The notes under the pieces are model-generated. The model was not told the DNA's origin. It ran no database searches and saw nothing but the letters and a program-made list of their open reading frames with translations. A stretch of 64,000 nt of DNA from an uncultured archaeon (GTDB lineage Archaea > Aenigmatarchaeota > Aenigmatarchaeia > CG10238-14 > SCSR01). The stretch is from assembly GCA_964372485.1 (NCBI GenBank), contig CAYJQI010000001.1:128001-192000 (forward strand). Direction: 5' to 3'. Positions 5,423 to 21,442 of the stretch are shown here, piece after piece. Each line of letters begins with the position of its first letter. Position 1 is the stretch's first letter. Made by a program: the position numbers and the translations under genes.

Positions 5423-7114
5423 CTAATTCTTGGAAAGAATGTAAAATTTAAGTTGTAAATTCTTGAGATCATCTTGATTTTCTATGTAATCGTAAATAGG
5501 ATATTTTTCGTTGCTTTTAACATTTACAAGAGTTGCAACATCTGCCTTATACTCATATTGACATTGCTTAGTGTAAAGATTCTCTCGTAAAGTACATTCT
5601 GGTACAGATTTCAAACTGGAGTAACATCTACCTGTATTTTGGAATTCTTCTGTACCTGATGGGCATTGTTTATCTTCGTATTTAACACATACATCATTTC
5701 CTATATCGAAATCGTATCCATTTGGACAGTTTGGAGAAGCTTTGTATATGTTAACATTTCCATTCTCAATTTCACAATTGTGTGAAGAATCTATCTCATA
5801 CACATTAGACGATGGGCATCCTATTTCACGCGGACATCCTTGATCATAGTAACATGAATTAGTTAATGTATCGTATACAGCAGATGAACAGCTAGAACCA
5901 GTAGATGGGCAAATAGGAGATGCTTTGACGACACATCTACCATTTTCTTCACTTCCTTCCAAACATAACTTGTCTGTATATTGTTCACAAAGTTCTGTTG
6001 AACCACTTCCTGTTATTATAGATGTGCAAGGAACACATATGTCATTTTGATTAGCTATTCTACCATTCAATTCGACTGTTCTTTGCGAATCACCTAATTT
6101 AACAGGATGGGATCCAATACATTTTTGTTCTATGCACCCACATTCTAAGCTACTTATTGAACTTTGCACTAAACAGGTATCTTCATTTTCAAATTCTATG
6201 TTGGTTTTGATATTGGATAGGGTAACATCTGTAGATAATTCGACTAATGAATCAACAAAATTAATTGTTTCGATATTGTTTGTTAATTTTGAAATGAATT
6301 CTGTTTTACAAGTTTCAGGAAACATCTCTCTTTTTGTGGGGTAAGTAAATTTGGAATTAGGACTATAACATCCATCGTAACGAATCATTTCACAATTTCC
6401 TGAAAGGTTATCATTATTTAATTTAGTTTTAACATCTACCATTCTCATTTGAGAAGCAGATAAAACTATTTTATCATCTATAGGATCATCAGTTCCTAGG
6501 AAAATTTCTTTTGCATTATCAATTAAACTATTTACAATAACTGATACTGTTTTCTCGATAGATGCATCTGTAGAAATTTCTAGATTAGTATTCTGAAATT
6601 TTATTTTATTATTAGTAACATCAGATGTAAAAACTGCAAAAATTTTATTTTTGTTTATCGTGAGGAATGGAACTGAAAATTCAGGCACTTCTAATTGCGG
6701 ATAAAGGTCTCTCATTGATTTAACATATTCAAAGAATAAAAGTGGTAATTTTTGTTGAAGTTTCAGCTGAATTAGATCTATTTGATTCTCGATACATATT
6801 TCATCATAAACTCTCCAATATGGAAGATCAGTTGGAAAATCTACAAGTTGATCTGAATCACAATTTCCTTCATAGTTTTCTACATAACTTCCTGTTTTTA
6901 GTACATCATAAATTCCATGATAGATTGAAAATAATGCGGCAATTGAAAATGTATTTTTAATGGAATTTATTTGATTCATAGATTCGATTATATTTCTTTC
7001 ATTAACACCTTTGGAAATGGATTGAACCTGATAAGCAAAATTAAATGATATTACACCTATCACAACTACGGTGCTAACAGCTGCAATAACTGCAATGTTT
7101 ATAGCTGCCTTCAT
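5423..7114 (-). CDS. large pilin-like / adhesin-like secreted protein, Cys-rich
   Basis: 563 aa. N-terminus MKAAINIAVIAAVSTVVVIGVISF is class III signal-like. The C-terminal ~330 aa are very Cys-rich (e.g. CPSTGSSCSS..CYYDQGCPREIGCPSS). 4-nt ATGA overlap with the upstream gene. Confidence 0.6.
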   Translation of the reverse strand: MKAAINIAVIAAVSTVVVIGVISFNFAYQVQSISKGVNERNIIESMNQINSIKNTFSIAALFSIYHGIYDVLKTGSYVENYEGNCDSDQLVDFPTDLPYWRVYDEICIENQIDLIQLKLQQKLPLLFFEYVKSMRDLYPQLEVPEFSVPFLTINKNKIFAVFTSDVTNNKIKFQNTNLEISTDASIEKTVSVIVNSLIDNAKEIFLGTDDPIDDKIVLSASQMRMVDVKTKLNNDNLSGNCEMIRYDGCYSPNSKFTYPTKREMFPETCKTEFISKLTNNIETINFVDSLVELSTDVTLSNIKTNIEFENEDTCLVQSSISSLECGCIEQKCIGSHPVKLGDSQRTVELNGRIANQNDICVPCTSIITGSGSTELCEQYTDKLCLEGSEENGRCVVKASPICPSTGSSCSSAVYDTLTNSCYYDQGCPREIGCPSSNVYEIDSSHNCEIENGNVNIYKASPNCPNGYDFDIGNDVCVKYEDKQCPSGTEEFQNTGRCYSSLKSVPECTLRENLYTKQCQYEYKADVATLVNVKSNEKYPIYDYIENQDDLKNLQLKFYILSKN

Positions 7115-7539
7115 CCTGTTTCAATCCTCACAAGTTTTATTTGAGATGATGAATCTGGATTGTAAGGTAATGCGATAGAGGTTGTAAAAATATACTTCTT
7201 TTCACATTGGCCATTTTCTGCTATTGTTTCATATGAATCTGGTAATCCTATTTTCAAAGAATAACAATCGGATATTTTATCTAATTCGATTTTTATAAAA
7301 CTGAGATCTACACTATCATATTCACTCTCTGATATTATTTGAGAAACTGTTTTGCCATTGTGAGTAGAAGATAACAATGAAAATAGTGTATACTGTGCAT
7401 TTTCATATTCGTATGTAAGTGATAGTTCACTATCAAGAACTGTTTTAACTATTGAAGGAGGTAATATTCCAAATGCAACTATTGTTGCCGTTGCTATCAA
7501 ACCGATAACTGGTATATCTGCAATTGTTTGTCCTTTCAT
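7111..7539 (-). CDS. pilin-like protein (class III signal peptide)
   Basis: 142 aa starting MKGQTIADIPVIGLIATATIVAFGIL. 4-nt overlaps on both sides. Confidence 0.55.
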   Translation of the reverse strand: MKGQTIADIPVIGLIATATIVAFGILPPSIVKTVLDSELSLTYEYENAQYTLFSLLSSTHNGKTVSQIISESEYDSVDLSFIKIELDKISDCYSLKIGLPDSYETIAENGQCEKKYIFTTSIALPYNPDSSSQIKLVRIETG

Positions 7540-8084
7540 TCAATCACTGTAACTTTTAACATGGCGATATGAACACTCCCATCTGGGTATCGTATGTTTA
7601 CAGGAAAACTATTTCTATCGAATATTGATGTAAACCTTTTAGAACATGCTTCGTATGACTGATCCGTTTGCACGAGCATACAACTTACAAAATCTTTTAC
7701 TCTCTGACTACTATCATTTTTCAGATAGAAACTGTAAGTAGGTGCGATGATACTTTTGTCTTCAATTGTAACCAAAGCAATTGTATCGGGATAGTGAACA
7801 CCAACTTTGGATGTATCAGAATTCACACCACTAGATATTGAATCTAATTTTGTTTTATCAAAAATTCCAATTTCATGTAAACCATCATTTGAATATAATA
7901 AATTTTCATTTCGCATTAGAGAGTTGGCTAGAATTATTGCTTTATTTTCCAATTCAATAGCGTCGATATGCGGAGTGACTTTTATTGCATTTGCAGGTAT
8001 CATTGTTGGCAAAACGATTCCAGCTAATACACCTGTCATCAATAGAGAAAATAATCCGACAACAGATTCTTGACCTTTTTTCAT
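7536..8084 (-). CDS. pilin-like protein (class III signal peptide)
   Basis: 182 aa starting MKKGQESVVGLFSLLMTGVLAGIVL. Abuts the upstream gene with no spacer. Confidence 0.55.
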   Translation of the reverse strand: MKKGQESVVGLFSLLMTGVLAGIVLPTMIPANAIKVTPHIDAIELENKAIILANSLMRNENLLYSNDGLHEIGIFDKTKLDSISSGVNSDTSKVGVHYPDTIALVTIEDKSIIAPTYSFYLKNDSSQRVKDFVSCMLVQTDQSYEACSKRFTSIFDRNSFPVNIRYPDGSVHIAMLKVTVIE

Positions 8085-8450
8085 TTACTCGACCTTTTCT
8101 ATGGAAGATTTAGATATCAATATGGAACTAACTGCATCAGGGCCAAAGTTAATTAATGAAGTTGTTTTTGATATGGCCCATTCTTCTTCTGTACTGACAT
8201 TTACATAACCACCACTTGCAGAAAGTTTGTAATTGACTTCTTCTGGAAATCTATAACTAATCTTAACATCATCTGAGTTAGCAATACTCATCAAATCTGC
8301 TACTTCTGCAGCCTTTTCTATGACTGAAGTTTTGGAAAGAACTAATTGTATATCTTCTATCATTCCTGGAATTCTAGATACAGTTAAAGCCCCAATAACA
8401 GCAAAACCTATTATTGTAATTGTACTTGTAACTGCACTACCTTTGAGCAT
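8085..8450 (-). CDS. pilin-like protein (class III signal peptide)
   Basis: 121 aa starting MLKGSAVTSTITIIGFAVIGALTV. Confidence 0.55.
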   Translation of the reverse strand: MLKGSAVTSTITIIGFAVIGALTVSRIPGMIEDIQLVLSKTSVIEKAAEVADLMSIANSDDVKISYRFPEEVNYKLSASGGYVNVSTEEEWAISKTTSLINFGPDAVSSILISKSSIEKVE

Positions 8451-8473
8451 AATAATAGTTTGTTTCCGTTAAA

Positions 8474-8758
8474 TTAATTGCGACATTTAGAACTTATGAA
8501 TCCTTGTTCGCAACAAGAATCGATACTGTCGGGTTTGAAAATTTTGTATTCAGTACATCCATCATTCCATTCAGAAGAAGGTCGTGTACCACTATTCAAT
8601 GCACTACAATAACTGATGAGACTTGCTTTACAAGAAGCTTGACTTGTTGTAAACTTTGTTGTATCTATCCAACCCCAGAAAATAGCGATTATGAAAAATA
8701 GAGAAATAGCGATCACACCTATAAGAAAAACGGCATGGACTGCAATTCCCTTTAACAT
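8474..8758 (-). CDS. small Cys-rich pilin-like protein
   Basis: 94 aa starting MLKGIAVHAVFLIGVIAISLFFIIAIF. Six Cys, including the C-x6-Y-C motif (SCKASLISYC) shared with three other small pilins in the operon. Confidence 0.55.
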   Translation of the reverse strand: MLKGIAVHAVFLIGVIAISLFFIIAIFWGWIDTTKFTTSQASCKASLISYCSALNSGTRPSSEWNDGCTEYKIFKPDSIDSCCEQGFISSKCRN

Positions 8759-8781
8759 AGTATAGAATTAAAAATTACAGT

Positions 8782-9021
8782 CTATAAGCTTTTACAGATT
8801 TCATCAGTTACAAGATCACATCCTTCTGGATAGGAAGCTGGTTTCGCTGGTTGTGTACTTGTATATGGTGATCCCCATTGATCACACCACGCTTCTTGAG
8901 CAGCTTTACATTCTGCCTCTGGAATTCTTCCACCGGCAACAAATAACCAATATCCGATCAAACCGATAACAGCAACACCAAGAAGAATTGCTATAATATA
9001 AGGAACTGCTACACCTTTCAT
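8782..9021 (-). CDS. small Cys-rich pilin-like protein (MKGVA.PY family)
   Basis: 79 aa. MKGVAVPYIIAILLGVAVIGLIGYWL is nearly identical to the N-termini of 13135..13428 and 13425..13787. Contains ECKAAQEAWC (C-x6-W-C). Confidence 0.6.
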   Translation of the reverse strand: MKGVAVPYIIAILLGVAVIGLIGYWLFVAGGRIPEAECKAAQEAWCDQWGSPYTSTQPAKPASYPEGCDLVTDEICKSL

Positions 9022-9059
9022 AGAAATAATTTGATTTGGACAGTATTTAAATATTACAA

Positions 9060-10772
9060 TTATTTAACAGTCAAACCATCTATCCATAATTTTTTTGCAC
9101 TAGTTAGAGAAGGTGTGTAATCCACTTCTTCAAAATGTATTTCACTTACGGAATTCCAATCGAATGCTGAGTTTTTACTAAATTCATCTTTATTGATACT
9201 TAATGGGGTATTTTGGAAACTTGTAGTAACACCTGTGATTAATTTCTGTACTTGGTCTCCCCCAAAGTCTCTGAGTATGACTTTGACATCTGTACTTACA
9301 TCAGATTTAATCAAAACTAATAATTCACTTAAGGCAAATGGATTTTGAGACGTGTACACCATATAAACATCATTACTTTCACCTCTGATAGAAAAGTAAC
9401 CCATTATTCTATCACTGGAATCAAGATAAACTGCAGTATTTCTCCCGCTCCATCTATCAATTGATTCAGTTATTGGTTCCGATAATGAACTTCGCATAGG
9501 AAGTGTAACTGTTTTTATCTCTGTTACTTTATATGACCCGGTTGAATCAAATGCAATTCCTTGGAAAGCGTAAGTTGATTCTATTGTATTACATATTATT
9601 GAAAACTTGGTTGAACACGCTACACCTTCGTTTGAACAATCATATTCACCTACTTTTTGACGATCATCAATTGTTTGTTTCGGTATGTCAACATCTTGTA
9701 AGAGACAATAATTCTTATTTCCTTGATGATCCAGGTTCAAATAAAGTGATTTTAGGTCACCATTATCATCTTCTGCTGTAAAGGATATTTCAAATAATTC
9801 ACCTAAATCAACTGATCCTTTAACTTGAAGGTTAGCAGATTTGGGTGGTTGTTGGATTGGAGAAATGTCTGGACCGGTTTTTGTCCATATACCAACATCT
9901 CCGTTAAAATCACAATCCGCTTCTCCAAAATCACTTTCGGCTGAATTTTTACATGTATGCCATACTCCATCTGACCCACATAATACACCATATTTTATTT
10001 TATAACCTCTCAAACCTTTGTTATTTTCCAATGCAGATCTATCTAATAAATTACAAAGGTCACCTTTGGCGCAGGGATCATGAGCTAGTAGAGTTTCGTC
10101 ATCGAAAGGAATACTTAAAACAAAATTGTTTTGAATACAACCAATTCTATCCACAAGATCTAAAAATGTAACTTCCCCATAACAGTTCACATAAGCATTA
10201 GGACCTGCGCAACGTTCACCACCTTGGCAAATAGTTGATACATCCCCTCTCACACATTTATCTCCTTCACCAGCTTTGGTTATTCTTTTGGGAATACAAA
10301 CAGGATTAGGATCTATTAATTTCGATTTTATACATTCGTAAGGTGATGAACATGTATCATCAATCTTAGCACCTGGATAGACATAATAATAACCACCATT
10401 GTCAACAGCTTCATTCGCACTTCCTAAAGATCCTTCATCATTTACGAATAAAACACATCTATCAGTGGGCAATTCTCCTGGAAAGAAAAATGGATTTGTT
10501 CCAAAACCTTCATCGTGTGCAGAGTGATGAACAGCATCTTGTCTTTTTTCTATCAATTCAAATGCCCATATTTCACCGGATGGATCAGCTTCATCACCTT
10601 TCACATGAATTGCGTAACCTTTGTCAGGGATGTCGAATCCTCCAAACATATTCTGTAACCATCCCAACAAATCAACACCAAAAGCTTTTGTAAGAAAAGC
10701 CATTCCAACAATAATAACAGCAACCATCAAGAAAATTTTCATGATCGCTTCTATAGCCATTGCCTTTGACAT
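9060..10772 (-). CDS. large pilin-like / adhesin-like secreted protein
   Basis: 570 aa. N-terminus MSKAMAIEAIMKIFLMVAVIIVGMAFL is class III signal-like. Cys-rich middle region and beta-rich C-terminus. Confidence 0.6.
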   Translation of the reverse strand: MSKAMAIEAIMKIFLMVAVIIVGMAFLTKAFGVDLLGWLQNMFGGFDIPDKGYAIHVKGDEADPSGEIWAFELIEKRQDAVHHSAHDEGFGTNPFFFPGELPTDRCVLFVNDEGSLGSANEAVDNGGYYYVYPGAKIDDTCSSPYECIKSKLIDPNPVCIPKRITKAGEGDKCVRGDVSTICQGGERCAGPNAYVNCYGEVTFLDLVDRIGCIQNNFVLSIPFDDETLLAHDPCAKGDLCNLLDRSALENNKGLRGYKIKYGVLCGSDGVWHTCKNSAESDFGEADCDFNGDVGIWTKTGPDISPIQQPPKSANLQVKGSVDLGELFEISFTAEDDNGDLKSLYLNLDHQGNKNYCLLQDVDIPKQTIDDRQKVGEYDCSNEGVACSTKFSIICNTIESTYAFQGIAFDSTGSYKVTEIKTVTLPMRSSLSEPITESIDRWSGRNTAVYLDSSDRIMGYFSIRGESNDVYMVYTSQNPFALSELLVLIKSDVSTDVKVILRDFGGDQVQKLITGVTTSFQNTPLSINKDEFSKNSAFDWNSVSEIHFEEVDYTPSLTSAKKLWIDGLTVK

Positions 10773-11122: not shown

Positions 11123-13102
11123 TTAGACTAATAACTTCTCTAGTGAAATGACAGATGTGAAGAGATAATATGTAAACAAGAGTGTGAATACATACACAAT
11201 ACTACTGTAAAGAAGAGTTTTAGAAATAGTAAGACGTTTTAGAAGACTTTCTTCACCATTCGTGATTGCGCTTACGGTAAATGCGATGATTGCAACTATT
11301 TCCACCAGATAAATCCCAACAAGTAATTGAAAACCGTGGATTGGAATAATATCACTGATATTAACTATTGAAGAAACGACTCCTGTACCAACACCACCCA
11401 CAGGTCCTAAAGCAGATCCTATTGTATTGTAAACTTGATCAAATGCTTCTCCAAGGAAAAGATTAAGTCGTGTCATTACTGCAGTCATTGTTACAACAAC
11501 CCCCGCACTTAACGGAGCAAGAAGTACACTTTGGATATTCATAGTCGATGTAACTTCATCCATCATATTTTTCAGTTCTTCACCTACTTGATGCATATCT
11601 TTCATGTATCGTGAGATAATTACCATGGATTTGGATGCACTTTGCATTCCTTTTTTAGAAGTTTCAACTATAACACGCATGGCAGAGTCTATTATACTCG
11701 ATGGGTAATAGTTAATTGCACCATATTTTTTATCGAAAATCGCATTTTCAAATGTCATTCCAAAAGTTTCAATATTATAGAGTATTTTTTGGAAGAAATT
11801 TGATATTTTTAGATTTTTAATATCGCCTTTCATTCTTCTTAATGCAGTTTCCAATGGGATTCCTCGTAATAACATACTACCGAGTTGGAATAATGCCTCG
11901 GAGAATTCAGTTTCAATTTCTCCAATTTCTTTTCTGAGTTTAATTTTTCTTTTAGTAGAGAAATAAAAATATGTAATAAACCCACCAGCCAATCCAAGCG
12001 TTATTAACATTGATGAGAAGAGTAACTTGAAACTAATTATATTTTCATCACCCACTATACCAAATACACCTAATGCAATCAACGGAAACGAAATCAATAA
12101 GGGAATTATATAAGGTTTCTCATAAAACTTTGTTACATAAAAATCAGGATGTCTACTTAGATCAGGTTGTCGTAAACTGTACGGTCTTTTCTCCAGATAA
12201 CTATTCATGAAAAGGTAAACAATAAGAGGCAGGAAGAAATCATAACCTACAGCAAGGAAGATAGGTTTTATTAAATCTGGTAAAAATCCACTCAAGATTG
12301 GGAAGAAAATTAATCCTATTATCGGCAAAAGAATTCCGAAAGCATTTAGAATAGTAACAGGTTCCTTTAATTGTCTCGAATATTGACGCATTCTATCTTT
12401 AGTTCCATCAAGCATAACAGATACTGCTTCATCCAGAAATCTTTCGCGTTTCTCTTGTGATTCAGCACCAGAATTCTTTATAAGATATATTGCTTCTGAA
12501 AATTCCTTACTATCCCGTTTCCACTTTTCTATAAAAGAATCCAAAGCGTCTTCAATCTTATCATATTTCCTTGTGTAAACTCCCCATAGCAATTCTCGTA
12601 AATCAGTAGACAGTGCACCTTTCAAATTTCTGGATGCAAATCTGACTGCATTTTCCAAATTAGGAGACAAATGCATTGATATACTCATGTAAATCGATGC
12701 AAGGACCATTTCAGATGAAGCGTTTATACGAAATACTGTTGCATAATGATTCGGATAATTTATTAGAAAATAAAATGCAATACCAGTCAATAAAAGAGAA
12801 AAAATTACAGACGAAGGGGTTAACAAGCCTGAACCAGATAGTGAATTAAGAAAGATGAAAATGATTATTGTTGTTAGAAAAACTAATAATGTTCCTATTA
12901 CAGCAAGAGAAAAGGCACCTTTAGGCGTTATCTTGAGATGTGAAAATGTTATAGATTCGGCATATTTTTCTTTCAAACTTTTGAAAGGTTGCAACGGAAA
13001 TATTTTTTCTGAAATATTAGCTAGTTTTTCATATTTAGATAGTTTTTTAGCTAATTTTTCTTCTTTTAGAAATTCTTGATATTCACGCGAAACTACTGGC
13101 AT
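11123..13102 (-). CDS. type IV pilus / archaellum-type platform membrane protein (FlaJ/TadC, T2SS-F family)
   Basis: 659 aa and polytopic. Two cytoplasmic helical T2SSF-like domains (..LSTDLRELLWGVY..; ..FSEALFQLGSMLLRGIPLETALRRM..) are each followed by TM clusters. It lies next to the secretion ATPase. Confidence 0.8.
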   Translation of the reverse strand: MPVVSREYQEFLKEEKLAKKLSKYEKLANISEKIFPLQPFKSLKEKYAESITFSHLKITPKGAFSLAVIGTLLVFLTTIIIFIFLNSLSGSGLLTPSSVIFSLLLTGIAFYFLINYPNHYATVFRINASSEMVLASIYMSISMHLSPNLENAVRFASRNLKGALSTDLRELLWGVYTRKYDKIEDALDSFIEKWKRDSKEFSEAIYLIKNSGAESQEKRERFLDEAVSVMLDGTKDRMRQYSRQLKEPVTILNAFGILLPIIGLIFFPILSGFLPDLIKPIFLAVGYDFFLPLIVYLFMNSYLEKRPYSLRQPDLSRHPDFYVTKFYEKPYIIPLLISFPLIALGVFGIVGDENIISFKLLFSSMLITLGLAGGFITYFYFSTKRKIKLRKEIGEIETEFSEALFQLGSMLLRGIPLETALRRMKGDIKNLKISNFFQKILYNIETFGMTFENAIFDKKYGAINYYPSSIIDSAMRVIVETSKKGMQSASKSMVIISRYMKDMHQVGEELKNMMDEVTSTMNIQSVLLAPLSAGVVVTMTAVMTRLNLFLGEAFDQVYNTIGSALGPVGGVGTGVVSSIVNISDIIPIHGFQLLVGIYLVEIVAIIAFTVSAITNGEESLLKRLTISKTLLYSSIVYVFTLLFTYYLFTSVISLEKLLV

Positions 13103-13134: not shown

Positions 13135-13428
13135 TTACCTACATTCCGTAGGTGGATTTCCACCCGAGATTGTTTGACAAATAGGACATGCATTGGTTTT
13201 CGGATCAAAACCTGTTCCACATGATCTTCCACAAACTTCTTTCATTGTTGTTTCTTTAGACTCATCTGGAGATGTACACCATGCAAATATCCTTGCGTTA
13301 CATTCGCCTTCTTTAGTAACACAATTTCCTGTTCCCCCACTTGAGATAAGCCAATAACCGATTATAGCTACAACAATGACTCCTATTATTAATGCTATTA
13401 TGTAAGGTATGGCCACTCCTTTCTTCAT
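13135..13428 (-). CDS. small Cys-rich pilin-like protein (MKGVA.PY family)
   Basis: 97 aa starting MKKGVAIPYIIALIIGVIVVAIIGYWL. Nine Cys, including ECNARIFAWC. 4-nt overlap with the upstream paralogue. Confidence 0.6.
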   Translation of the reverse strand: MKKGVAIPYIIALIIGVIVVAIIGYWLISSGGTGNCVTKEGECNARIFAWCTSPDESKETTMKEVCGRSCGTGFDPKTNACPICQTISGGNPPTECR

Positions 13429-13787
13429 CTTTCACATCCGCCCCAAACACCATTCACACATTGTTGTATTCCAGATTCTGTAGGAGAAATTACACAATTA
13501 CGTGTTTGACCATTTGTACATTGTTGAGATCCTGATGGGGTAGTGTAAGAAGGTGTTTCGATGCATTTACCTGTAGAATCTTTTTCTGGTTTAAGCCCTG
13601 GGCATTTAGTTTCATCGAAATTTGATGTAAATCCATTACAATAATTGAAAGCCATTGTATCACATTCTGCTTTATTTCCTACAATAATTGTTTTTCCTCC
13701 TTGGAAAATTAACCAATATCCGATTAAACCAATTATAATTACACCAAGTACAAGCGCAATAACATATGGAATGGCCACGCCTTTCAT
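13425..13787 (-). CDS. small Cys-rich pilin-like protein (MKGVA.PY family)
   Basis: 120 aa starting MKGVAIPYVIALVLGVIIIGLIGYWL. Eight Cys, including ECDTMAFNYC. Confidence 0.6.
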   Translation of the reverse strand: MKGVAIPYVIALVLGVIIIGLIGYWLIFQGGKTIIVGNKAECDTMAFNYCNGFTSNFDETKCPGLKPEKDSTGKCIETPSYTTPSGSQQCTNGQTRNCVISPTESGIQQCVNGVWGGCER

Positions 13788-13806: not shown

Positions 13807-16044
13807 TTAACTAATTCTTTTCTTAAACCATTCCAACCATTTGTCGTAAATCATTTTCGAGTCCAAGGCACCAACTTCCTGCCTGACTTGCTCGGAAATT
13901 AGATGGAACATTGCATTCGATTCAACGACATAATCTGCTTCGAGGGATGTATCTCTTCCTGTAGTTGCGGCAAGATTGACCATCGTTTCCTTAATCTTGG
14001 CTCTCAAAAGAATATTATCCCAGACCAAATCCCATTGGCCATGCCATTCCCTGACTCTGCTTGATATTTCATTCAATAATTCAGACTCACCATCTATCAA
14101 AGTAGCGGTAGGTTTTAGTTTGTCTTCTTTTGCAGAATATTCCATGAGATTAATAAATCCTCCTTCATCCATTGGATCGTTCTTCCAATGTTTTCTTACT
14201 TCAGTCAATTCAGTAACTCGCCTAAATCTATGAAGACCATCGGATGATTTCAATTGATTACAAACTGTGATTAGATCCAATGCTTTGAAACTAGTTGGTG
14301 GAACACCTAAATCATGAACCACTCTATCATAAACACCATAAGCAGATTCACCATGAATTGTACCTGCAACGACATTTGCTAATGCACCAATTCTCATCGC
14401 CTCATAGAGTGCAAGTGATTCAACAGATCTTACTTCACCAATAATGAGAACAGAATCTCCCAATCTTAATGCAGTTCGCAAGGCTTCGTCTGCTGGTAAT
14501 TCAGTTTCAACACGAGTAATAACAGAACGTGATTTCATTCTTTCGATATTATATCCTAATTGTCGTAATGAAGTCATTGGAAGTTCGAGTGTATCTTCGA
14601 CAGAAATAATTCTGAACTTCGGCATTATTTCCAACATTAATGATCCGAGAACAGATGTTTTTCCTGATCCACGTCCACCCGCTACAAGTAATGCTCTTCC
14701 ACCATCGATAATAAAACTCATCAGCCCTGCATACAATGGATCGAACATTTTATTTTTAACAAATAATGGAAATGTCCAAGGTTTTTCTCTGTGTCTTCTA
14801 AATGCAAAGGCAAGTCCTTCGGGTGATAATGATTTTGTTATAGCTGCAACTCTTGCTCTTCCCCCAGGGACAAACAATTCAGTATCAAGAACAGGATTTG
14901 ATTCATCTAATGGTCTACCGGAATACAATCTGAATCTCGTTGCCCATGATTCTGCATCTTCGTTTGTAGGAATTAAATTTGTTTCACATTCTTCAAAATC
15001 TCCATGAGTAATGTATATAGGTATTAATCCTATAGGTGCGTTAATGTAGACGTCTTGAATTCTTTCATCTGATAATAATAATTCTAAAATTCCAAATCCT
15101 GCTGTGTAACGTGATAGAATTGTTGCGAGTTCTTCTATCTCAGCTGAAGTTAAATTTACTCCCATGTTTCTTGATATATCACGGATAAGATCTCTTCCAA
15201 GATTTTTGAAAAGTTCTCTAGATTTTTCTGGTTCGACGGATTCTGCTTCTGTTGGACGATGCGCGGCAAGATATCTTCTCGCAGAATCGAGTATTGTATA
15301 TTTTTCATCGCTTAGAACAAATTCTTTTGGAGTTATATGATAAAGATGACGAACTTTTGTTGGAAGTTTGTATATTTCCACATCTGCACCTACCATTGAA
15401 TATTTTTCAACTAATCGTGCTCCTTTCGGAATTGAGAGCATGAATCGGGTGAGCATAAAATTTGGACGGGTTGTTGGTGAAAATAATTCTCTGTATATAT
15501 CTCTACTCCCAAGTTGGTAACTCTGTAGAATCGGCATTGCTTTTTGGATTAATGTACAACCTTCAAGAATATTTTTCATCGGAATTAATGCACTATCAAG
15601 ATATTGACTGAAACAAACTTTCTGTTCTATTGGTGCGGTACCTTCGAGAACTTTATTTGCATTAACCATCTTCACAATTCTCAAATAAGCTCCGATTGGA
15701 TCTTTTCTTAGAACCTCCATTGTTAAAAATTGTAAATCTGCTAATCTTTTTGCGAAAAGTTTTTCACATTGTGTAGGACCGAAGTTTTTGATACTGATTA
15801 TTTTGTCGATATTCAAAATCCTATTGTAAGCATCTGCAATTTCACGTAACATTTTAGTTTGTTCAACATCATATTCATTTTCACGAGCTTCGATTAGAAC
15901 AACTCTGTTAGCTTCCCGAGCTTCAAGTAATTTATCGATAACTACGGCCATTGTTGCATCAGAATCTTCTACACTTGGAGGTATGGCCCAATTCATGCAG
16001 TTTATTCTAAGAGCTCCATCTACCACTTCATACTGTATAGCCAA
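13807..16044 (-). CDS. type II/IV secretion-system ATPase (FlaI / GspE / VirB11 superfamily), first gene of the pilus-like operon
   Basis: 745 aa. Walker A is LVAGGRGSGKTSVLGSL, the Walker B / Asp box region is SVLIIGEVRSVE, and the His box is VAGTIHGES. The N-terminal region is long compared with typical FlaI. Confidence 0.9.
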   Translation of the reverse strand: MAIQYEVVDGALRINCMNWAIPPSVEDSDATMAVVIDKLLEAREANRVVLIEARENEYDVEQTKMLREIADAYNRILNIDKIISIKNFGPTQCEKLFAKRLADLQFLTMEVLRKDPIGAYLRIVKMVNANKVLEGTAPIEQKVCFSQYLDSALIPMKNILEGCTLIQKAMPILQSYQLGSRDIYRELFSPTTRPNFMLTRFMLSIPKGARLVEKYSMVGADVEIYKLPTKVRHLYHITPKEFVLSDEKYTILDSARRYLAAHRPTEAESVEPEKSRELFKNLGRDLIRDISRNMGVNLTSAEIEELATILSRYTAGFGILELLLSDERIQDVYINAPIGLIPIYITHGDFEECETNLIPTNEDAESWATRFRLYSGRPLDESNPVLDTELFVPGGRARVAAITKSLSPEGLAFAFRRHREKPWTFPLFVKNKMFDPLYAGLMSFIIDGGRALLVAGGRGSGKTSVLGSLMLEIMPKFRIISVEDTLELPMTSLRQLGYNIERMKSRSVITRVETELPADEALRTALRLGDSVLIIGEVRSVESLALYEAMRIGALANVVAGTIHGESAYGVYDRVVHDLGVPPTSFKALDLITVCNQLKSSDGLHRFRRVTELTEVRKHWKNDPMDEGGFINLMEYSAKEDKLKPTATLIDGESELLNEISSRVREWHGQWDLVWDNILLRAKIKETMVNLAATTGRDTSLEADYVVESNAMFHLISEQVRQEVGALDSKMIYDKWLEWFKKRIS

Positions 16045-16091: not shown

Positions 16092-16520
16092 ATGGACATC
16101 CCTAACCTTCCGCAATTGCCCTTTGAAAGACACGATGAGGAAGTTTCAAAAATAGTCACAGAGCTTGTTAAAAGAGTGAATGAGGATGTGAGGAGAATAA
16201 GAGTTGTGGAGCAGAGAATTGATAGGTTGGAAAGTTCTGTTGAATCAATTCAAGAAGATACATTGACTCAGTTGAATGATTTGAAAATTGGATTGGAAAA
16301 GATTAACAACAAAATAGTTTCTGTTTCTGAAAAGTTGATGAACATCGAGGGCGAGATTTTAAGATTAAGCAAAGAATTGTCAAAAACCGCAACTAGAAGG
16401 GAATTGAAACAGATAGAAACTTTTATTGATTTGATAAATCCTGTTACAGCGAAATTTGTTACGAAAGAAGAAGTAGAAAAAGCGATTGAAGATAAAGTTC
16501 ATAGATTCAAGAAATCATGA
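16092..16520 (+). CDS. coiled-coil protein, function unknown
   Basis: 142 aa with heptad-rich sequence (RIRVVEQRIDRLESSVESIQEDTLTQLNDLKIGLEKINNKI..). Divergent from the pilus ATPase gene across a 47-nt spacer. Confidence 0.5.
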   Translation: MDIPNLPQLPFERHDEEVSKIVTELVKRVNEDVRRIRVVEQRIDRLESSVESIQEDTLTQLNDLKIGLEKINNKIVSVSEKLMNIEGEILRLSKELSKTATRRELKQIETFIDLINPVTAKFVTKEEVEKAIEDKVHRFKKS

Positions 16521-16922
16521 TTTTGGTAGAATTTGTAATGTTGCTTCAAGTTGAGGATGATCACCTTGGCTTCCTTCAGCACATGTTTTACAATAGATTT
16601 TAAATGAACCGACTTTAGATGCAACAAACTCGATCACATCAGGATTTGATGGTGATGTACTGGTAATCAATGTGTTTATTCCAAATTCGTCAATGGAAAT
16701 ACCATGATCATGTGTAGGTTCTGTTGTAATTGCAAGGAATTTTATTAAATCCCCCTCAGTTGCTGTGAATTTATTAGGTTGGTAACCTCCATGAGTTATA
16801 GCAATATCAAATTCTGTTGTATTTCCGGCAAAAGTTGTCTTACCAGGCATTCCAAAGAAGAATCCAGCGAATAAAATAACCGCTACAAGAAGAATGAGTA
16901 AATATAACTTATTTAATTTCAT
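16515..16922 (-). CDS. membrane-anchored cupredoxin-like domain protein
   Basis: 135 aa with an N-terminal TM helix. 'GGYQPNKFTATEGDLIKFLA..THDHGISIDEFG..GSFKIYCKTC..H' resembles the cupredoxin_1 / EfeO-type pattern (His, Cys, His ligand candidates). Confidence 0.5.
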   Translation of the reverse strand: MKLNKLYLLILLVAVILFAGFFFGMPGKTTFAGNTTEFDIAITHGGYQPNKFTATEGDLIKFLAITTEPTHDHGISIDEFGINTLITSTSPSNPDVIEFVASKVGSFKIYCKTCAEGSQGDHPQLEATLQILPKS

Positions 16923-16974: not shown

Positions 16975-17649
16975 ATGGCATTACCTTTTTTGAGAGGCGG
17001 AAAGGGCAAAGGCGCTATTCCTGTGGAAAGAGTCAAAGATTTGACCGCAAGAGGGTTTTCTGAAGTCGAAATTATAGATGTTTTGAGAAAAGAGGGTTAT
17101 TCTCCAGAAGAAATTGACACCGGATTGACACAATCTTTAAAATTTGCGGCTGCAAACCCAGCAACTCCACCAAATTTAGGATTACCACCAGAGCAACCTA
17201 AGGAAAGGGGTATGTTACCGACTTTGGATGATATTTTACCACGAGAACAACCTCAAACTGTGACTCCACAATTACCAGAAACATCTTTACCGCAAGAATA
17301 TTATCAACAAGACCATCAACAAGCATATCCAACTGAAGATTATGTAGATTATATTGTTCAGGCAAGAATGGGAGACATAAATCAAAAGATTACCGAGTTC
17401 TCAGTCAAGGCTACTGAAATAGAAAAAAGAGTGCAGGAAATAAGTGATAGAATAAGTGAGATTATGAATTTGAGAAATGCTGAACAAACACAGATTTTGA
17501 GTAAGATAGAAACTTTCAAAGAAGGTGTGACTGATATAGAAACTAGAATTAGTGGTTTGGAGAGGGCATTTAAGGAAACATTGCCTGCATTAATAGAATC
17601 TGTGAGGGCATTGACTGATCTTGTGCAAAGATTCAAGAGAGAAGCTTAA
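16975..17649 (+). CDS. coiled-coil protein with a small N-terminal helical domain and a Pro/Gln-rich linker
   Basis: 224 aa. N-terminus VERVKDLTARGFSEVEIIDVLRKEGYSPEEID, a P/Q-rich low-complexity middle, then a C-terminal ~100-aa heptad region similar in style to 16092..16520. Confidence 0.5.
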   Translation: MALPFLRGGKGKGAIPVERVKDLTARGFSEVEIIDVLRKEGYSPEEIDTGLTQSLKFAAANPATPPNLGLPPEQPKERGMLPTLDDILPREQPQTVTPQLPETSLPQEYYQQDHQQAYPTEDYVDYIVQARMGDINQKITEFSVKATEIEKRVQEISDRISEIMNLRNAEQTQILSKIETFKEGVTDIETRISGLERAFKETLPALIESVRALTDLVQRFKREA

Positions 17650-17672: not shown

Positions 17673-18176
17673 ATGGCATTTGCAATTGAAAATTTTGTTT
17701 CTCAAGAACTAACTCAAATTCTTGTAACTGCGGTAATTCCATTTTTGATAATTTTTGCTGTCCTTTTGTTTGCGTTGAGACAAACTAGAGTTCTTGGAAG
17801 CAATAATTTGATTTATATTATATTATCAGCAGGATTCACGATCATGATTTATGCTGTCCGTCCAGAAACTTTTGCATTTCTTGCATCTTATCTAGTACAA
17901 CTGAGTGTAGCCGGTGCTATTATAGCTCTATTGGGTGTTTTCATAGTCATAGTTTTTTCTTTATTGAGACGTGGACAGAATATTACAGATATGTTCAAAT
18001 CCGAAGCAGACAAATTGAAAGCATTGGAAAAAGAAGAGATCAAATTAAGGAATCGATATCAATCTCGTGGATTTATGTCACCAAATATTGCTGAACGAGA
18101 AGAGATCGCAGGTAAATTAGAAAAAATAGAGCATGAAAAAAAATTCCTACTGGCCAAACTGAGAAGACTTCACTAG
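17673..18176 (+). CDS. membrane protein, paralogue 1 of a 4-gene tandem family (has a C-terminal coiled coil)
   Basis: 167 aa. ..LTQILVTAVIPFLIIFAVLLFALRQTRVLGS.. carries the family signature. The C-terminus is KSEADKLKALEKEEIKLRNRY.. Confidence 0.55.
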   Translation: MAFAIENFVSQELTQILVTAVIPFLIIFAVLLFALRQTRVLGSNNLIYIILSAGFTIMIYAVRPETFAFLASYLVQLSVAGAIIALLGVFIVIVFSLLRRGQNITDMFKSEADKLKALEKEEIKLRNRYQSRGFMSPNIAEREEIAGKLEKIEHEKKFLLAKLRRLH

Positions 18177-18215
18177 CCTTTAAATTTTTACTAAACTAAA
18201 TTAACAAAAGATATA

Positions 18216-18755
18216 ATGGTAAATGTTTTTGAGATTGCGGTTGAAAGGCTTAACGAGTTAGGATTTTACAATTTTCTACTTCCGTTCATATTATTTACTG
18301 CAATCGTATTTGCAGTTCTGAGGAAAACCCACATCTTAGGAGATTCGGTTTCGATCAATGCTGTTGTAGCAGTTTCAGCTGGATTGTTAGTTTTAGGTGC
18401 ACCAGTTCTATTGGGTGGAGATTTAATCCATCCTTTAACAGCATTCATGACGCAGTCACTAGTTGTTATGTTGGTAATTATAGTTGGTTTTATGTTAGCT
18501 AGTTTCTTCTATCCAAATATAACGGAAAAATTAGGGGAAATATTCAAGGCTCCTGGACCAGCGAACTGGCTTATTTGGGGAACTGTTGCACTTGCTGCGG
18601 TATTTGGATTGTTCACATTCATCGGCAAACCTATCGGAACTGCGATAAGTGGCGCTAAAATACCAAGTGAATTAATAAGTATGGTTGTAATAGTATTCAT
18701 AGTTATGATAATTTTACTTGTAGTAACGATAGGTGCAGGGAAGGAGGCTAAGTAA
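18216..18755 (+). CDS. membrane protein, paralogue 2 of the tandem family
   Basis: 179 aa starting MVNVFEIAVERLNELGFYNFLLPFILFTAIVFAVLRKTHILGD, followed by about 4 more TM helices. Confidence 0.6.
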   Translation: MVNVFEIAVERLNELGFYNFLLPFILFTAIVFAVLRKTHILGDSVSINAVVAVSAGLLVLGAPVLLGGDLIHPLTAFMTQSLVVMLVIIVGFMLASFFYPNITEKLGEIFKAPGPANWLIWGTVALAAVFGLFTFIGKPIGTAISGAKIPSELISMVVIVFIVMIILLVVTIGAGKEAK

Positions 18756-19300
18756 TGGTGTCGTTTTTTGAAAATGCAATTTTGAAACTTCAGGAGTTGG
18801 GATTTTTCCAATTCTTCTTACCATTCCTTTTAACAGCTGCTATAGTTTATGGTGGATTGAGAAGAGCGCAGTTGTTTGGAGATCCTGATAAGAATATCGC
18901 TGTGAATGGAATTGTTGCTTTTGTTATTAGTTTGTTTGTATGGGCAGCACCAATAATTCTTGGAGTGGATATAGAATCAAGATTGTCGGCATTTTTCATC
19001 CAAGGGATTAGTGTATCGTTGATAGTTTTATTTGGACTAATAATATCGAGTATGTTTTTCCCACCAGATTTGGCAAAGAACTTGAGTGATAGAGTCAAGA
19101 CACCGATTTTCTGGGGAGGGATTGTTATTGTGGCATTGATTATTTTCATTGTTATTCTGATATCGAGTGGGTTAGCATCTGTTTTGTTTCCACGAGGGGT
19201 AGGAGTTAGTATATCATCGGCAACATGGGGAACAATTGCAGCCATGGCAGCTCTTGTTATAAGTTTATTTATAGTAGTAAGAGCCGGAGGAGGCAAATAA
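18755..19300 (+). CDS. membrane protein, paralogue 3 of the tandem family
   Basis: 181 aa starting MVSFFENAILKLQELGFFQFFLPFLLTAAIVYGGLRRAQLFGD. TAATG overlap with paralogue 2. Confidence 0.6.
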   Translation: MVSFFENAILKLQELGFFQFFLPFLLTAAIVYGGLRRAQLFGDPDKNIAVNGIVAFVISLFVWAAPIILGVDIESRLSAFFIQGISVSLIVLFGLIISSMFFPPDLAKNLSDRVKTPIFWGGIVIVALIIFIVILISSGLASVLFPRGVGVSISSATWGTIAAMAALVISLFIVVRAGGGK

Positions 19301-19333
19301 TGTTTAAATCTTTAGAAAAGAAAATAGGGTTAG

Positions 19334-19981
19334 TTGAAAATGAAAAGTGAAATTACTTCTAAGATTGGATTGAGTTTTATTCTCAGTATTTTGATGTTTT
19401 CTACGATAACGTTTGCTCAAGGATTTGCAAACATTGTTGAGACATTGAAGGAAGTTGGTGTTTTCGAGTTCTATCTTCCTTTCTTATTGGTTTTTGCAGT
19501 TTTGTACGCTTTGTTGTTGAAAGCGGGTATTTTCGGTACACAAAAGCAGCTAGTCACTATTATCGCATTAGCTGCATCTGCATTCATAATGGTTTATGTA
19601 CCTGTAGGAATAACATTTGGACAGTTCTTAACTAATTTTGTAGGAAATGCTGTAACTGCAATATTGACTGTTCTTTTGTTTTTGATATTTATTGGTATGC
19701 TTCAAAGTGGTAAAATATTACCTGAATCTATGGCAGATGTTTTCAAAGGTAGTGTTCTATGGATAGTGCTTATTTTTATTTTATTGATCGCGTTTGGTGT
19801 GTTCATTTCAAGTGGAGGAACTTCAATATTCCCCGGTCTTAAGATATTTCCAACTCAATCATTTGGAGGCGTTGGGGGACTTGAACCATCTACAATTGCT
19901 ATAATTGTTTTGATTATTGGAACGGCTATTATCATTTTCCTATTTGCTAAAGGGGACAAAGCCGCAGCAGCAAAAACTTAG
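19334..19981 (+). CDS. membrane protein, paralogue 4 of the tandem family (extra signal-peptide-like N-terminus)
   Basis: 215 aa. ..FANIVETLKEVGVFEFYLPFLLVFAVLYALLLKAGIFG.. is preceded by KIGLSFILSILMFSTITFAQG. The track start is TTG at 19334; the ATG at 19340 is an equally plausible start. Confidence 0.6.
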   Translation: MKMKSEITSKIGLSFILSILMFSTITFAQGFANIVETLKEVGVFEFYLPFLLVFAVLYALLLKAGIFGTQKQLVTIIALAASAFIMVYVPVGITFGQFLTNFVGNAVTAILTVLLFLIFIGMLQSGKILPESMADVFKGSVLWIVLIFILLIAFGVFISSGGTSIFPGLKIFPTQSFGGVGGLEPSTIAIIVLIIGTAIIIFLFAKGDKAAAAKT

Positions 19982-20045: not shown

Positions 20046-20675
20046 ATGAGTGAATCTTTGGCAGTTTTAGCTACGCAATTAGATGAGCCTAAAATCGTTG
20101 TAGAACCTGGGGTGGACGCTTCTAGGGTTAACGAAATAAAAAATAATATTGTTAAAGCTGAACATGGATTGGCTCATTTTATGAGCAGATATATACCAAA
20201 TGCTCGAAGTTTCCTAAACAAAGGAACGTATTACATCAAACGTCTCGGAAGAGGACTTGGAGGTATATTCAATCCTGAAGATGATAGTTTGCAGATAAAT
20301 CCTGATCAACCAAGTTCTAATTTTAGAGATGAATCTACTGTTCATGAAAAGATACATTTCTATCAGAAAGTTGGTGGTGCATTAGGAAGATATTGGGATG
20401 GTCTTATTTCGAACTTGGGTGATTTTGGTGCAATGTTATACAAGCCAATCATAGAAGGTGGAGCATCTTATTTGACACAACTTTATAGAGGACAGAAAAG
20501 TGAAGATGCATATTCTCCATATAGAGCAGGTGCAGAGGAAGTTGCGCATAAGCATGGTGCAGGTGTTTTAGTCAATCCGCCTAAAGATTCAAGAAAACTT
20601 ATGCAAATAGCAGGAACTTTTATTGACGGAATGTCAAAGTACATCAGGAAAAATCCTAGAGTAGCATATGCCTAA
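20046..20675 (+). CDS. hypothetical protein with an HExxH motif (possible zinc metallopeptidase-like)
   Basis: 209 aa. The only recognisable motif is 'STVHEKIHFYQ' (HEKIH). Confidence 0.45.
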   Translation: MSESLAVLATQLDEPKIVVEPGVDASRVNEIKNNIVKAEHGLAHFMSRYIPNARSFLNKGTYYIKRLGRGLGGIFNPEDDSLQINPDQPSSNFRDESTVHEKIHFYQKVGGALGRYWDGLISNLGDFGAMLYKPIIEGGASYLTQLYRGQKSEDAYSPYRAGAEEVAHKHGAGVLVNPPKDSRKLMQIAGTFIDGMSKYIRKNPRVAYA

Positions 20676-21418
20676 ATTAGATATTCTTCTTCTGTGAAAT
20701 GAAGCTTTCCAGGAATAATTATTACGGCGGGTATATCTAATATTTCACGATTCATGATATTATTCACAGTGTCGTAAATTATTACAGGATTTTCACTACC
20801 AACTTTAGCAAAAACAATTATTTTTTCATCGCTGACAATTTCACCATCCAAAAGAACCTTCAATCCTTCGTTAACAGTCATGTATCTGTTTTCTTCAGCC
20901 ACAACATCAAGAAGACATAATGTATGGAGATCTCGTTTCTTGTTTTCTTGAATAACTTCGAAAACTGATTGGGGAGGATTATTTTTTGTTTTTTCCGGGA
21001 ATGGAATTGTAACGTATCTTCCGAATTTTTGAGAATGTAAACCGGTTTCTCCAAGAGCTGATAGAATTGAAGCATTGTGTATTATTTTGGTTTCTATCCC
21101 AAGTTTTTTCGCGTCAAACAAAAGTGAATAATGTGTTGTTTGTATGAGAGGATCTCCTTGGATTAAGATGGCTATTTTCTGATTTTTGGCTTCTTCGATT
21201 ATTTTTCTAGAATCTTCTTCTAGATCTTTTCTTTTCAATTCGAAGATTTTCTTTCCTATCAGATTTTCAAGATTGGTTAAATTTCCATACCATTTACCTG
21301 TATAAAGTTCGATGTAGATTTTATCGGAATTTTTGAGCTCGTCAACTGCTTTCAGAGACAAATCATTCTCATTATACAATCCCAACCCAATTAAATTCAA
21401 TGACATAAACAGAATCAA
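20672..21418 (-). CDS. dph5: diphthine synthase
   Basis: 248 aa. LNLIGLGLYNENDLSLKAVDELKNSDKIYIELYT.. and ..ILIQGDPLIQTTH.. match the diphthine synthase / tetrapyrrole-methylase fold pattern. Confidence 0.85.
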   Translation of the reverse strand: MILFMSLNLIGLGLYNENDLSLKAVDELKNSDKIYIELYTGKWYGNLTNLENLIGKKIFELKRKDLEEDSRKIIEEAKNQKIAILIQGDPLIQTTHYSLLFDAKKLGIETKIIHNASILSALGETGLHSQKFGRYVTIPFPEKTKNNPPQSVFEVIQENKKRDLHTLCLLDVVAEENRYMTVNEGLKVLLDGEIVSDEKIIVFAKVGSENPVIIYDTVNNIMNREILDIPAVIIIPGKLHFTEEEYLI

Positions 21419-21442
21419 TTACAAAACTTTAACTTGTTAATA

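What the first reader, a model, noticed from the sequence alone, without database searches (positions are those of the whole stretch)
17673..19981. Four tandem paralogues of an unrecognised membrane protein family
Four consecutive + strand genes encode 167-215 aa polytopic proteins. They share an N-terminal signature visible directly in the translations: 'ERLNELGFYNFLLPFILFTAIVFAVLRKTHILGD', 'LKLQELGFFQFFLPFLLTAAIVYGGLRRAQLFGD', 'ETLKEVGVFEFYLPFLLVFAVLYALLLKAGIFG' and 'QELTQILVTAVIPFLIIFAVLLFALRQTRVLGS'. The pattern is a short amphipathic helix, then a (F/Y)-x-F-(L/F)-LPF-(I/L)-L TM helix, a basic residue and (I/L/V)-(L/F)-G. Paralogues 2 and 3 are joined by a TAATG overlap. Paralogue 4 adds a signal-peptide-like extension, and paralogue 1 replaces the distal TM helices with a cytoplasmic coiled coil. 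Four diverged copies in a row suggest a hetero-oligomeric membrane complex. I cannot place it in any known transporter, pilus or secretion family. The block lies 1.6 kb from the pilus ATPase promoter, directly after two coiled-coil proteins.
Basis: seen in the sequence. Interest (0 to 1): 0.65.

Follow-up and report, generated by a model that had tools for sequence, protein, structure and literature searches.

The report
DPANN pilus-locus tandem membrane protein family
Four neighbouring genes encode related five-helix membrane proteins of an undescribed family; in two phyla of tiny symbiotic (DPANN) archaea this family always lies beside the motor genes of a type IV pilus-like machine, so it is probably an unknown membrane part of that machine.

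Summary
Four + strand genes are real paralogues: A 17673-18176, B 18216-18755, C 18755-19300, D 19340-19981. B, C and D are full-length five-helix proteins. A keeps helices 1-3 and adds a cytoplasmic coiled coil.

No Pfam, NCBIfam, PHROG, PDB-sequence or Foldseek match reaches significance, so the family is undescribed. It is large: 2446 representative clusters in a deep profile search.

In Aenigmatarchaeota, the window's phylum, it forms arrays of 2-5 copies. These fall into four orthologous clades in a fixed order (A)-B-C-(D), with B and C in essentially all complete arrays. The array usually starts 22-52 bp after two conserved coiled-coil genes, which lie head-to-head with a 745-aa TadA/FlaI-type ATPase and its platform gene.

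Nanoarchaeota/Woesearchaeota keep the same five gene families as neighbours in a different order and orientation.

Best explanation (confidence about 0.55): a hetero-oligomeric membrane accessory complex of a DPANN-specific type IV filament machine, linked to the ATPase through the coiled-coil proteins. Direct interaction is not tested. Novelty: a new accessory module of a known kind of machine. Interest is moderate.

The parts
17673..18176 (+). Paralogue A (167 aa): family helices 1-3 plus a C-terminal cytoplasmic coiled coil. Divergent clade, present only in 3-5-copy arrays.
   Evidence: ORF and sequence. Family HMM hit 1.7e-8. hhalign probability 98.3%. A-clade genes are first in the array in 21 of 23 cases.
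18216..18755 (+). Paralogue B (179 aa): full five-helix member. The B clade is the first gene of every two-copy array.
   Evidence: Clade and position statistics.
18755..19300 (+). Paralogue C (181 aa): full five-helix member and the best conserved clade. Its start overlaps the B stop (TAATG), with GGAGG upstream.
   Evidence: AF2 model pLDDT 77 with five transmembrane helices.
19340..19981 (+). Paralogue D (213 aa from ATG 19340; the mechanical ORF starts at TTG 19334): signal-peptide-like N-extension plus a five-helix body. The D clade is the last gene in 45 of 54 cases.
16975..17649 (+). cc224: conserved cytoplasmic partner. It has an N-terminal three-helix bundle, a disordered P/Q linker with a conserved LPTLE...PETSLPQEYY motif, and a 104-residue helix ending in LEKAFKETLPALIESVRAL.
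   Evidence: 417 homologues. Alignment. AF2 model. Its stop lies 22-52 bp before the array in about 50 loci.
16092..16520 (+). cc142: conserved coiled-coil protein, head-to-head with the ATPase gene in both phyla.
13807..16044 (-). 745-aa secretion ATPase (T2SSE domain; TadA/FlaI-like) with a roughly 290-aa N-terminal extension.
   Evidence: Pfam T2SSE 4e-16. NCBIfam TadA 8e-36 and FlaI 4e-33, both below their cut-offs. Conserved neighbour of the array.
11123..13102 (-). 659-aa polytopic platform protein (faint T2SSF signal).
   Evidence: Pfam T2SSF 0.0037, sub-threshold. Conserved partner of the ATPase.
13135..13787 (-). Two small pilin-like genes (97 and 120 aa) with N-termini MKKGVAIPY... 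and MKGVAIPY..., lying between the platform and ATPase genes.
   Evidence: Sequences. Conserved in close relatives. The class III signal is inferred from sequence only.
5423..10772 (-). Further pilin-like and large Cys-rich secreted proteins of the same minus-strand operon. N-termini include MLKGIAV, MLKGSAV, MKKGQES, MKGQTIA and MSKAMAIEA.
   Evidence: Sequences. No Pfam or NCBIfam hit.

Best explanation
A-D are subunits of a hetero-oligomeric membrane complex that acts as an accessory module of a DPANN-specific type IV filament (TFF) machine.

Topology. Each full subunit has its N-terminus outside the cell. A short amphipathic helix lies on the outer face and is followed by five transmembrane helices, with the C-terminus in the cytoplasm.

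Composition. B and C form the obligatory core. D, and the truncated A with its cytoplasmic coiled coil, are lineage-specific additions.

Proposed mechanism. The complex sits beside or around the platform protein. It is tied to the hexameric ATPase by the two cytoplasmic coiled-coil proteins cc142 and cc224, and by the coiled coil of A. In this it would act as a scaffold, collar or stator, as ArlX/ArlCDE do for the archaellum and PilMNO/GspLM do for bacterial systems.

Status of each step.
- Shown: homology, clade structure, gene order, cross-phylum neighbourhood, predicted fold.
- Inferred: topology.
- Inferred and untested: physical assembly and contact with the TFF core.
For: 1. The neighbourhood survives rearrangement. 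In about 50 Aenigmatarchaeota loci the array follows cc224 by 22-52 bp on the same strand, and cc142 is divergent from the ATPase. In Woesearchaeota, Nanoarchaeia and other divergent lineages (L095, L099-L104) the order is [2-3 family genes +][cc224-like -, cc142-like -][ATPase +, platform +]. There the flanking genes differ and all five families were confirmed by HMM.

2. The subunits are non-redundant. There are four orthologous clades in a fixed order. B is first and C second in 31 of 31 two-copy loci.

3. The genes are tightly coupled. Stops and starts overlap or lie 0-4 nt apart in many loci.

4. Topology is consistent across the family. Loops 1 and 3 carry 2.1-2.2 K+R on average, against 0.04 for loop 2. 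Sporadic signal peptides occur in all clades. This topology puts the coiled coil of A in the cytoplasm together with cc142 and cc224.

5. A structural role fits the sequence. The invariant and near-invariant columns listed for the alignments are Gly, Pro, Phe, Leu and one loop Lys (plus the start Met); none is an acidic residue.

6. There is a hint of oligomerisation. A natural D-type gene is fused to a Peptidase_S74 trimerisation/autocleavage domain.

7. Where the array is detached from the ATPase (L034), it abuts a DUF2341 adhesin gene, a domain tied to archaeal T4P in PMC4858521.
Against: There is no direct evidence of interaction or co-transcription.

Gene order in these phyla is generally conservative. 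The unrelated dph5 and TYW2 genes are also syntenic with the array, even in L103, so synteny alone is weak evidence.

In about 14 loci 2-5 kb of other genes separate cc224 from the array. In L034 and L067 no ATPase lies within 7.6-8.9 kb upstream.

In the window a reverse-strand cupredoxin gene splits cc142 from cc224.

The monomer model has pTM of only 0.50.

The Nanoarchaeota paralogues do not map one-to-one onto B, C and D.
Confidence: 0.55

Rival explanations
1. The array is an independent envelope or membrane-housekeeping complex, for example for membrane organisation, S-layer anchoring or lipid handling. It lies near the TFF genes only because gene order is conserved in these small genomes.
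For: dph5 and TYW2 are functionally unrelated to pili yet equally syntenic. Insertions separate the array from cc224 in about 14 loci, and in L034 and L067 the array is away from the ATPase.
Against: Five gene families stay together across two phyla despite an inverted orientation and different flanks. In most loci the array starts 22-52 bp after cc224. The cytoplasmic coiled coil of A parallels cc142 and cc224.
Confidence: 0.25
2. The proteins form a channel or transporter, for example a mechanosensitive-type channel or a lipid or solute conduit. It could be used for exchange with the host, with the coiled-coil proteins acting as regulators.
For: The proteins are polytopic, with five helices and an N-terminal amphipathic helix before helix 1, as in MscL (recalled from memory). 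One JGI record is named 'small-conductance mechanosensitive channel'. Weak hits to PhoLip_ATPase_C and TIGR01652 were seen.
Against: All these hits are below their cut-offs, and PF16212 is hit by only 1 of 40 members. No Pfam channel or transporter family matches. Foldseek finds nothing with E below 2.4. No acidic residue is among the invariant or near-invariant columns. In the inferred topology the amphipathic helix is outside the cell, unlike in MscL.
Confidence: 0.12
3. The proteins are unusual substrates or filament-associated subunits of the TFF machine, that is, pilin-like cargo, rather than machine parts.
For: The genes lie in a pilus locus. Some members carry cleavable-looking signal peptides.
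Against: Five transmembrane helices with a cytoplasmic C-terminus are incompatible with extraction into a filament. There is no class III signal motif. The signal peptides are Sec-like and sporadic.
Confidence: 0.04
4. The similarity is a chance product of hydrophobic composition, or the ORFs are not genes.
For: Transmembrane proteins can give inflated scores.
Against: Composition-corrected E-values reach 2e-18. 897 clusters match at E<=1e-10. Orthologues are conserved from 87% to about 20% identity with conserved length and position.
Confidence: 0.01

Closest known systems
ArlX / ArlCDE (FlaX / FlaCDE) accessory proteins of the archaellum
   Same: They are accessory proteins of an archaeal TFF machine and are encoded with the ATPase and platform. 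ArlX combines a membrane anchor with a cytoplasmic coiled coil, as paralogue A does. ArlCDE are cytoplasmic helical proteins, as cc142 and cc224 are (established knowledge; PMC4858521).
   Different: There is no significant sequence relationship: FlaC_arch scores E 0.0094 and 16.8 bits against a 27.8-bit cut-off. ArlX has one transmembrane helix, not three to five. The archaellum has no tandem polytopic paralogues. No ArlH, ArlF or ArlG homologue was noticed in the locus.
PilM/N/O and GspL/M alignment or assembly subcomplexes of bacterial T4P and T2SS
   Same: Paralogous membrane proteins (PilN/PilO, GspL/GspM) with coiled coils form hetero-oligomers that connect the cytoplasmic ATPase side to the envelope (established knowledge).
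   Different: They are bitopic, with one transmembrane helix and periplasmic ferredoxin-like domains. The present family is polytopic and has almost no extramembrane mass. No sequence or fold similarity was found.
TadB/TadC and PilC/FlaJ platform proteins (T2SSF)
   Same: They are polytopic membrane proteins of TFF machines and often occur as adjacent paralogous pairs.
   Different: hhalign of the family against the locus's own platform protein gives probability 0.2%. There is no T2SSF hit and no cytoplasmic helical bundle.
arCOG07564 coiled-coil protein of subclade 4F T4P loci
   Same: It is a cytoplasmic coiled-coil protein specific to one archaeal T4P subclade, whose ATPase type was also reported in nanoarchaea (PMC4858521).
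   Different: Homology to cc142 or cc224 could not be tested because no arCOG07564 sequence was at hand. No polytopic partner family is described for 4F.

Membership tests
The undescribed DPANN five-helix tandem family itself | N-terminal amphipathic helix; G-[FY]-x-[FV]-x-LPF at the start of helix 1; K/R after helix 1; [ILV][LF]G; a P...G turn between helices 2 and 3; length about 170-215 aa | tested here: met
   Alignments A3 and A4 list G16, F20, P23, F24, L35, K37, G42, P66 and G70 among the invariant or near-invariant columns. All four window proteins hit the family HMM.
The undescribed DPANN five-helix tandem family itself | Tandem array of two or more paralogues next to cc142-type, cc224-type, long T2SSE ATPase and platform genes | tested here: met
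T2SSF platform (PilC/FlaJ/TadC) | T2SSF domain: cytoplasmic helical bundle plus transmembrane helices | tested here: not met
   No Pfam hit at E<=1. hhalign against the locus platform gives probability 0.2%.
Prepilin peptidase (Peptidase_A24; PibD/FlaK/EppA) | Two catalytic aspartates, one in a GxGD-type motif, within a polytopic body | tested here: not met
   No A24 hit at E<=1 or among 40 members. No Asp is among the invariant or near-invariant columns.
Type IV pilin / archaellin (class III signal peptide proteins) | Short positively charged leader ending in G, a single hydrophobic N-terminal helix, then a globular domain | tested here: not met
   Five transmembrane helices. N-termini lack the motif, and where an extension exists it is Sec-like, for example ...AFAQG.
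Mechanosensitive channels (MscS/MscL) | Pfam MS_channel or MscL domain; a cytoplasmic beta domain in MscS | tested here: not met
   No Pfam or NCBIfam hit. The only pointer is one automatic JGI name.
P4-ATPase C-terminal membrane domain (PhoLip_ATPase_C) | Score above the Pfam gathering cut-off, as part of a P-type ATPase | tested here: not met
   22.8 bits against a 28.3-bit cut-off for C only. Only 1 of 40 members matches.
Archaellum accessory proteins ArlX / ArlC (FlaC_arch) | FlaC_arch or ArlX domain, encoded in an operon with ArlH, ArlF and ArlG | tested here: inconclusive
   cc224 hits FlaC_arch at E 0.0094, below the cut-off, which is likely generic coiled-coil similarity. ArlH, ArlF and ArlG were not searched for systematically.
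Type IV filament system (as an accessory component) | Physical association with the ATPase/platform core and a requirement for filament assembly | not testable with these tools
   Only genomic association is available.

The most novel reading that the evidence does not exclude
The tandem paralogues, with cc142 and cc224, form a previously unseen class of membrane-embedded ring or collar in a DPANN-specific type IV filament machine, possibly with three-fold symmetry. It would replace the stator or alignment complexes of other systems. It could even act as a gated conduit coupling the pilus motor to attachment to, or exchange with, the host cell.
Probability: 0.15. Interest if true: 0.8.

Novelty: new variant of a known kind. 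Interest (0 to 1): 0.5.

Why it matters
DPANN archaea are obligate episymbionts, and their pili are prime candidates for host contact. Yet their TFF loci are largely made of 'hypothetical' genes, and the surveys read here (PMC4858521, PMC6393860, bioRxiv 10.64898/2026.04.22.720090) do not describe this module.

This work defines a five-family module conserved across two phyla: a long ATPase, a platform protein, two coiled-coil proteins and two to five polytopic paralogues. That gives concrete targets for cryo-ET, AlphaFold-multimer and co-purification work. It would also improve annotation of thousands of proteins now labelled hypothetical.

If the complex is a new kind of stator or scaffold, it broadens the known ways in which TFF motors are anchored in a membrane that has no outer envelope layers.

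Tried and rejected
- Family libraries: Pfam, NCBIfam and PHROGs scans of A-D and their neighbours gave nothing above cut-off. A Pfam scan of 40 diverse members gave only scattered sub-threshold hydrophobic hits (DUF2070, DUF350) and one real C-terminal fusion domain.
- Solved structures: a PDB sequence search with the family profile found nothing. Foldseek of the AF2 model of C against PDB and BFVD had a best E of 2.4-2.8.
- cc224: the PDB profile search gave generic coiled-coil hits only. Foldseek of its model showed the N-domain weakly resembling PEX14-NTD, RecX and HTH bundles, with E>=0.8, which is not significant.
- Profile comparisons: hhalign of the family against the platform and the ATPase found no relation. 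cc142 against cc224 gave 54% probability, which is ambiguous coiled-coil similarity.
- Failed scans: two attempts to scan genome contigs with the broad alignments failed because no stretch was conserved enough. The C-clade alignment worked, but it is biased towards Aenigmatarchaeota.
- Literature: searches found no description of the family.
- Not attempted: sigma-70 promoter scanning, because it does not apply to archaea.
- Ideas rejected: prepilin peptidase, pilin, MscS/MscL and flippase-domain readings (see the membership tests).
Full report
**Observation**

The region 17673-19981 holds four consecutive + strand ORFs: A (167 aa), B (179 aa), C (181 aa) and D (215 aa from TTG 19334). The database entry for D starts at ATG 19340 and is 213 aa, so that is the likelier start. 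B and C share a TAATG stop/start overlap, and a GGAGG lies upstream of the C start.

Composition-corrected BLASTP gives B-C 2e-18, C-D 3e-12, B-D 4e-9 and A-D 1.7e-6. An HMM built without any A-type sequence hits A at 1.7e-8. Profile-profile comparison with the A clade gives 98.3% probability over 98 columns. B, C and D are therefore clear paralogues. A is a genuine but truncated member, with helices 1-3 plus a coiled-coil tail.

**Is the family known?**

No Pfam, NCBIfam or PHROG model reaches its cut-off for any of the four proteins or for 40 diverse relatives. A family profile finds nothing among PDB sequences.

AlphaFold2 on a 30-sequence alignment gives a model of C with pLDDT 77 and pTM 0.50. 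It shows a short N-terminal helix (4-14), five long helices (17-38, 48-68, 73-101, 117-144, 155-178) and a short loop helix. Foldseek finds no similar structure in PDB or BFVD; the best E-values are 2.4-2.8.

The weak PhoLip_ATPase_C hit of C (22.8 bits against a 28.3-bit cut-off) is seen in 1 of 40 members and is dismissed. The TFF surveys read here do not describe the family.

**Size and range**

A word-indexed search found 139 relatives. Those carrying a source name are all labelled hypothetical proteins of Aenigmatarchaeota (Aenigmarchaeota). An exhaustive profile search found 2446 representative clusters at E<=1e-3 and 897 at E<=1e-10. Nearly all of those listed are 170-215 aa.

A search seeded with the most divergent members found relatives named Candidatus Nanoarchaeia, Woesearchaeota and Nanoarchaeota. 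The family therefore spans at least two DPANN phyla.

**Anatomy of the arrays**

In 87 loci, mostly Aenigmatarchaeota, the order is nearly invariant:
- platform (-) and ATPase (-);
- cc142 (+), cc224 (+), then [A] B C [D] (+);
- dph5 (-) and TYW2 (+).

Copy number ranges from 2 to 5. The array begins 22-52 bp after the cc224 stop in about 50 loci. About 14 loci have 2-5.4 kb inserted at that point. L034 and L067 lack the ATPase within 7.6-8.9 kb upstream.

A neighbour-joining tree of 243 members resolves four clades that track position in the array. B is first and C second in 31 of 31 two-copy loci. D is last in 45 of 54 cases. A is first in 21 of 23 cases and occurs only in 3-5-copy arrays. 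Adjacent genes overlap or lie 0-4 nt apart in many loci. Ancient, positionally fixed, translationally coupled paralogues point to non-redundant subunits of one complex. This is an inference.

**Link to the pilus machine**

The minus-strand operon encodes:
- a 745-aa T2SSE ATPase, with TadA/FlaI-like NCBIfam hits below their cut-offs;
- a 659-aa platform protein;
- many proteins with class III-like N-termini, and large Cys-rich secreted proteins.

Synteny within one phylum is weak evidence, because the unrelated dph5 and TYW2 genes are equally syntenic. The decisive observation comes from divergent lineages. In L095, L099/L100 (Woesearchaeota), L101/L102 (Nanoarchaeia), L103 and L104 the arrangement is [2-3 family genes +][cc224-like -, cc142-like -][long ATPase +, platform +]. 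The flanks there are otherwise different. HMM checks confirmed all five families in L095 and L099-L102. The same five gene families therefore stay neighbours although order and orientation changed. That is the classical signature of a functional module.

In L034, where the array is detached from the ATPase, its immediate convergent neighbour is a Laminin_G_3 + DUF2341 protein. PMC4858521 ties the DUF2341 domain to archaeal pilus adhesins.

**Partners**

cc224 is better conserved than the membrane proteins: about 50% identity across hundreds of homologues. It is not a generic coiled coil. It has:
- a three-helix N-domain (residues 16-60);
- a disordered P/Q linker with an invariant LP...PE...Y motif;
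- one 104-residue helix ending in a near-invariant LEKAFKETLPALIESVRAL.

The Nanoarchaeota versions lack the N-domain. No significant structural or sequence relative was found.

**Topology**

Loops 1 and 3 carry on average 2.1-2.2 K+R, against 0.04 for loop 2. Sec-type signal-like extensions occur sporadically in all four clades. Both observations indicate an N-out, C-in topology. This places the coiled coil of A in the cytoplasm with cc142 and cc224.

The invariant and near-invariant columns reported for the alignments are Gly, Pro, Phe, Leu and one loop Lys (plus the start Met); none is an acidic residue. This argues for a structural role rather than a catalytic or ion-conducting one.

A natural D-position gene (P0234, found on 7 contigs) carries a C-terminal Peptidase_S74 domain (8e-17), a known trimerisation/autocleavage module. 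This hints at trimeric symmetry.

**Conclusion**

The best-supported reading, with confidence about 0.55, is a hetero-oligomeric membrane accessory complex of a DPANN-specific TFF machine. It would be functionally analogous to ArlX/ArlCDE or PilMNO, but not homologous to them.

The rivals are:
- an independent envelope complex that is merely syntenic (0.25);
- a channel or transporter (0.12);
- pilin-like cargo (0.04);
- an artefact (0.01).

The finding is real and undescribed. It is best classed as a new accessory module of a known kind of machine, and its interest is moderate.

Noticed in passing
window 16515-16922 (-): A cupredoxin-like gene (Pfam Cupredoxin_1, 7e-7) lies on the opposite strand between cc142 and cc224. 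Its end overlaps the cc142 stop. It is absent from the close relatives L001-L003, so it looks like a lineage-specific insertion that splits the presumed operon.
   Followed up: partly
L092 8001-8954 (protein P0234): The D-position paralogue of a related Aenigmatarchaeota genome is fused to a C-terminal Peptidase_S74 (intramolecular chaperone/autocleavage) domain. The same gene was seen on 7 contigs.
   Followed up: partly
L092 4998-5662: A MazE/PIN toxin-antitoxin pair is inserted between cc142 and cc224, the same spot where the window carries the cupredoxin gene.
   Followed up: no
L034 9290-11710 (-): Where the array is not next to the ATPase, an 806-aa Laminin_G_3 + DUF2341 (PilY-like adhesin domain) gene converges on it.
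   Followed up: partly
L095 2734-6576; L100 12116-17485: The orthologous TFF ATPase genes in Nanoarchaeota/Woesearchaeota lineages are interrupted by one or two inteins with LAGLIDADG homing endonucleases.
   Followed up: no
window 20046-20675 (+): The 209-aa soluble protein just downstream of D contains an HExxH motif (HEKIH) but has no family match. phmmer detects it in only a few relatives (L009, L010). Other loci have unrelated or undetected genes of 228-322 aa at this position.
   Followed up: partly
L099 8057-8353; L101 7052-7435: A PRC-barrel domain gene sits just upstream of the family array in both Nanoarchaeota-type loci examined. It may be a further lineage-specific component.
   Followed up: no
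window 20672-23185; L103 2714-4619: The dph5 (TP_methylase) and TYW2 methyltransferase genes flank the array in nearly all Aenigmatarchaeota loci. They also lie about 4-5 kb from it in the divergent L103. This shows unusually deep conservation of gene order for functionally unrelated genes.
   Followed up: partly
window 2124-4718 (+): An 864-aa protein has an N-terminal CxxC...H...H zinc-finger-like motif, a multi-helix membrane region and a very Cys-rich C-terminal part. It lies next to the pilin operon.
   Followed up: no
window 21443-21913 (-): A 156-aa protein has a glycine-zipper-like hydrophobic segment (GLGALGAIMGGSMGLALGPLGVLFGG). It has no family match.
   Followed up: no
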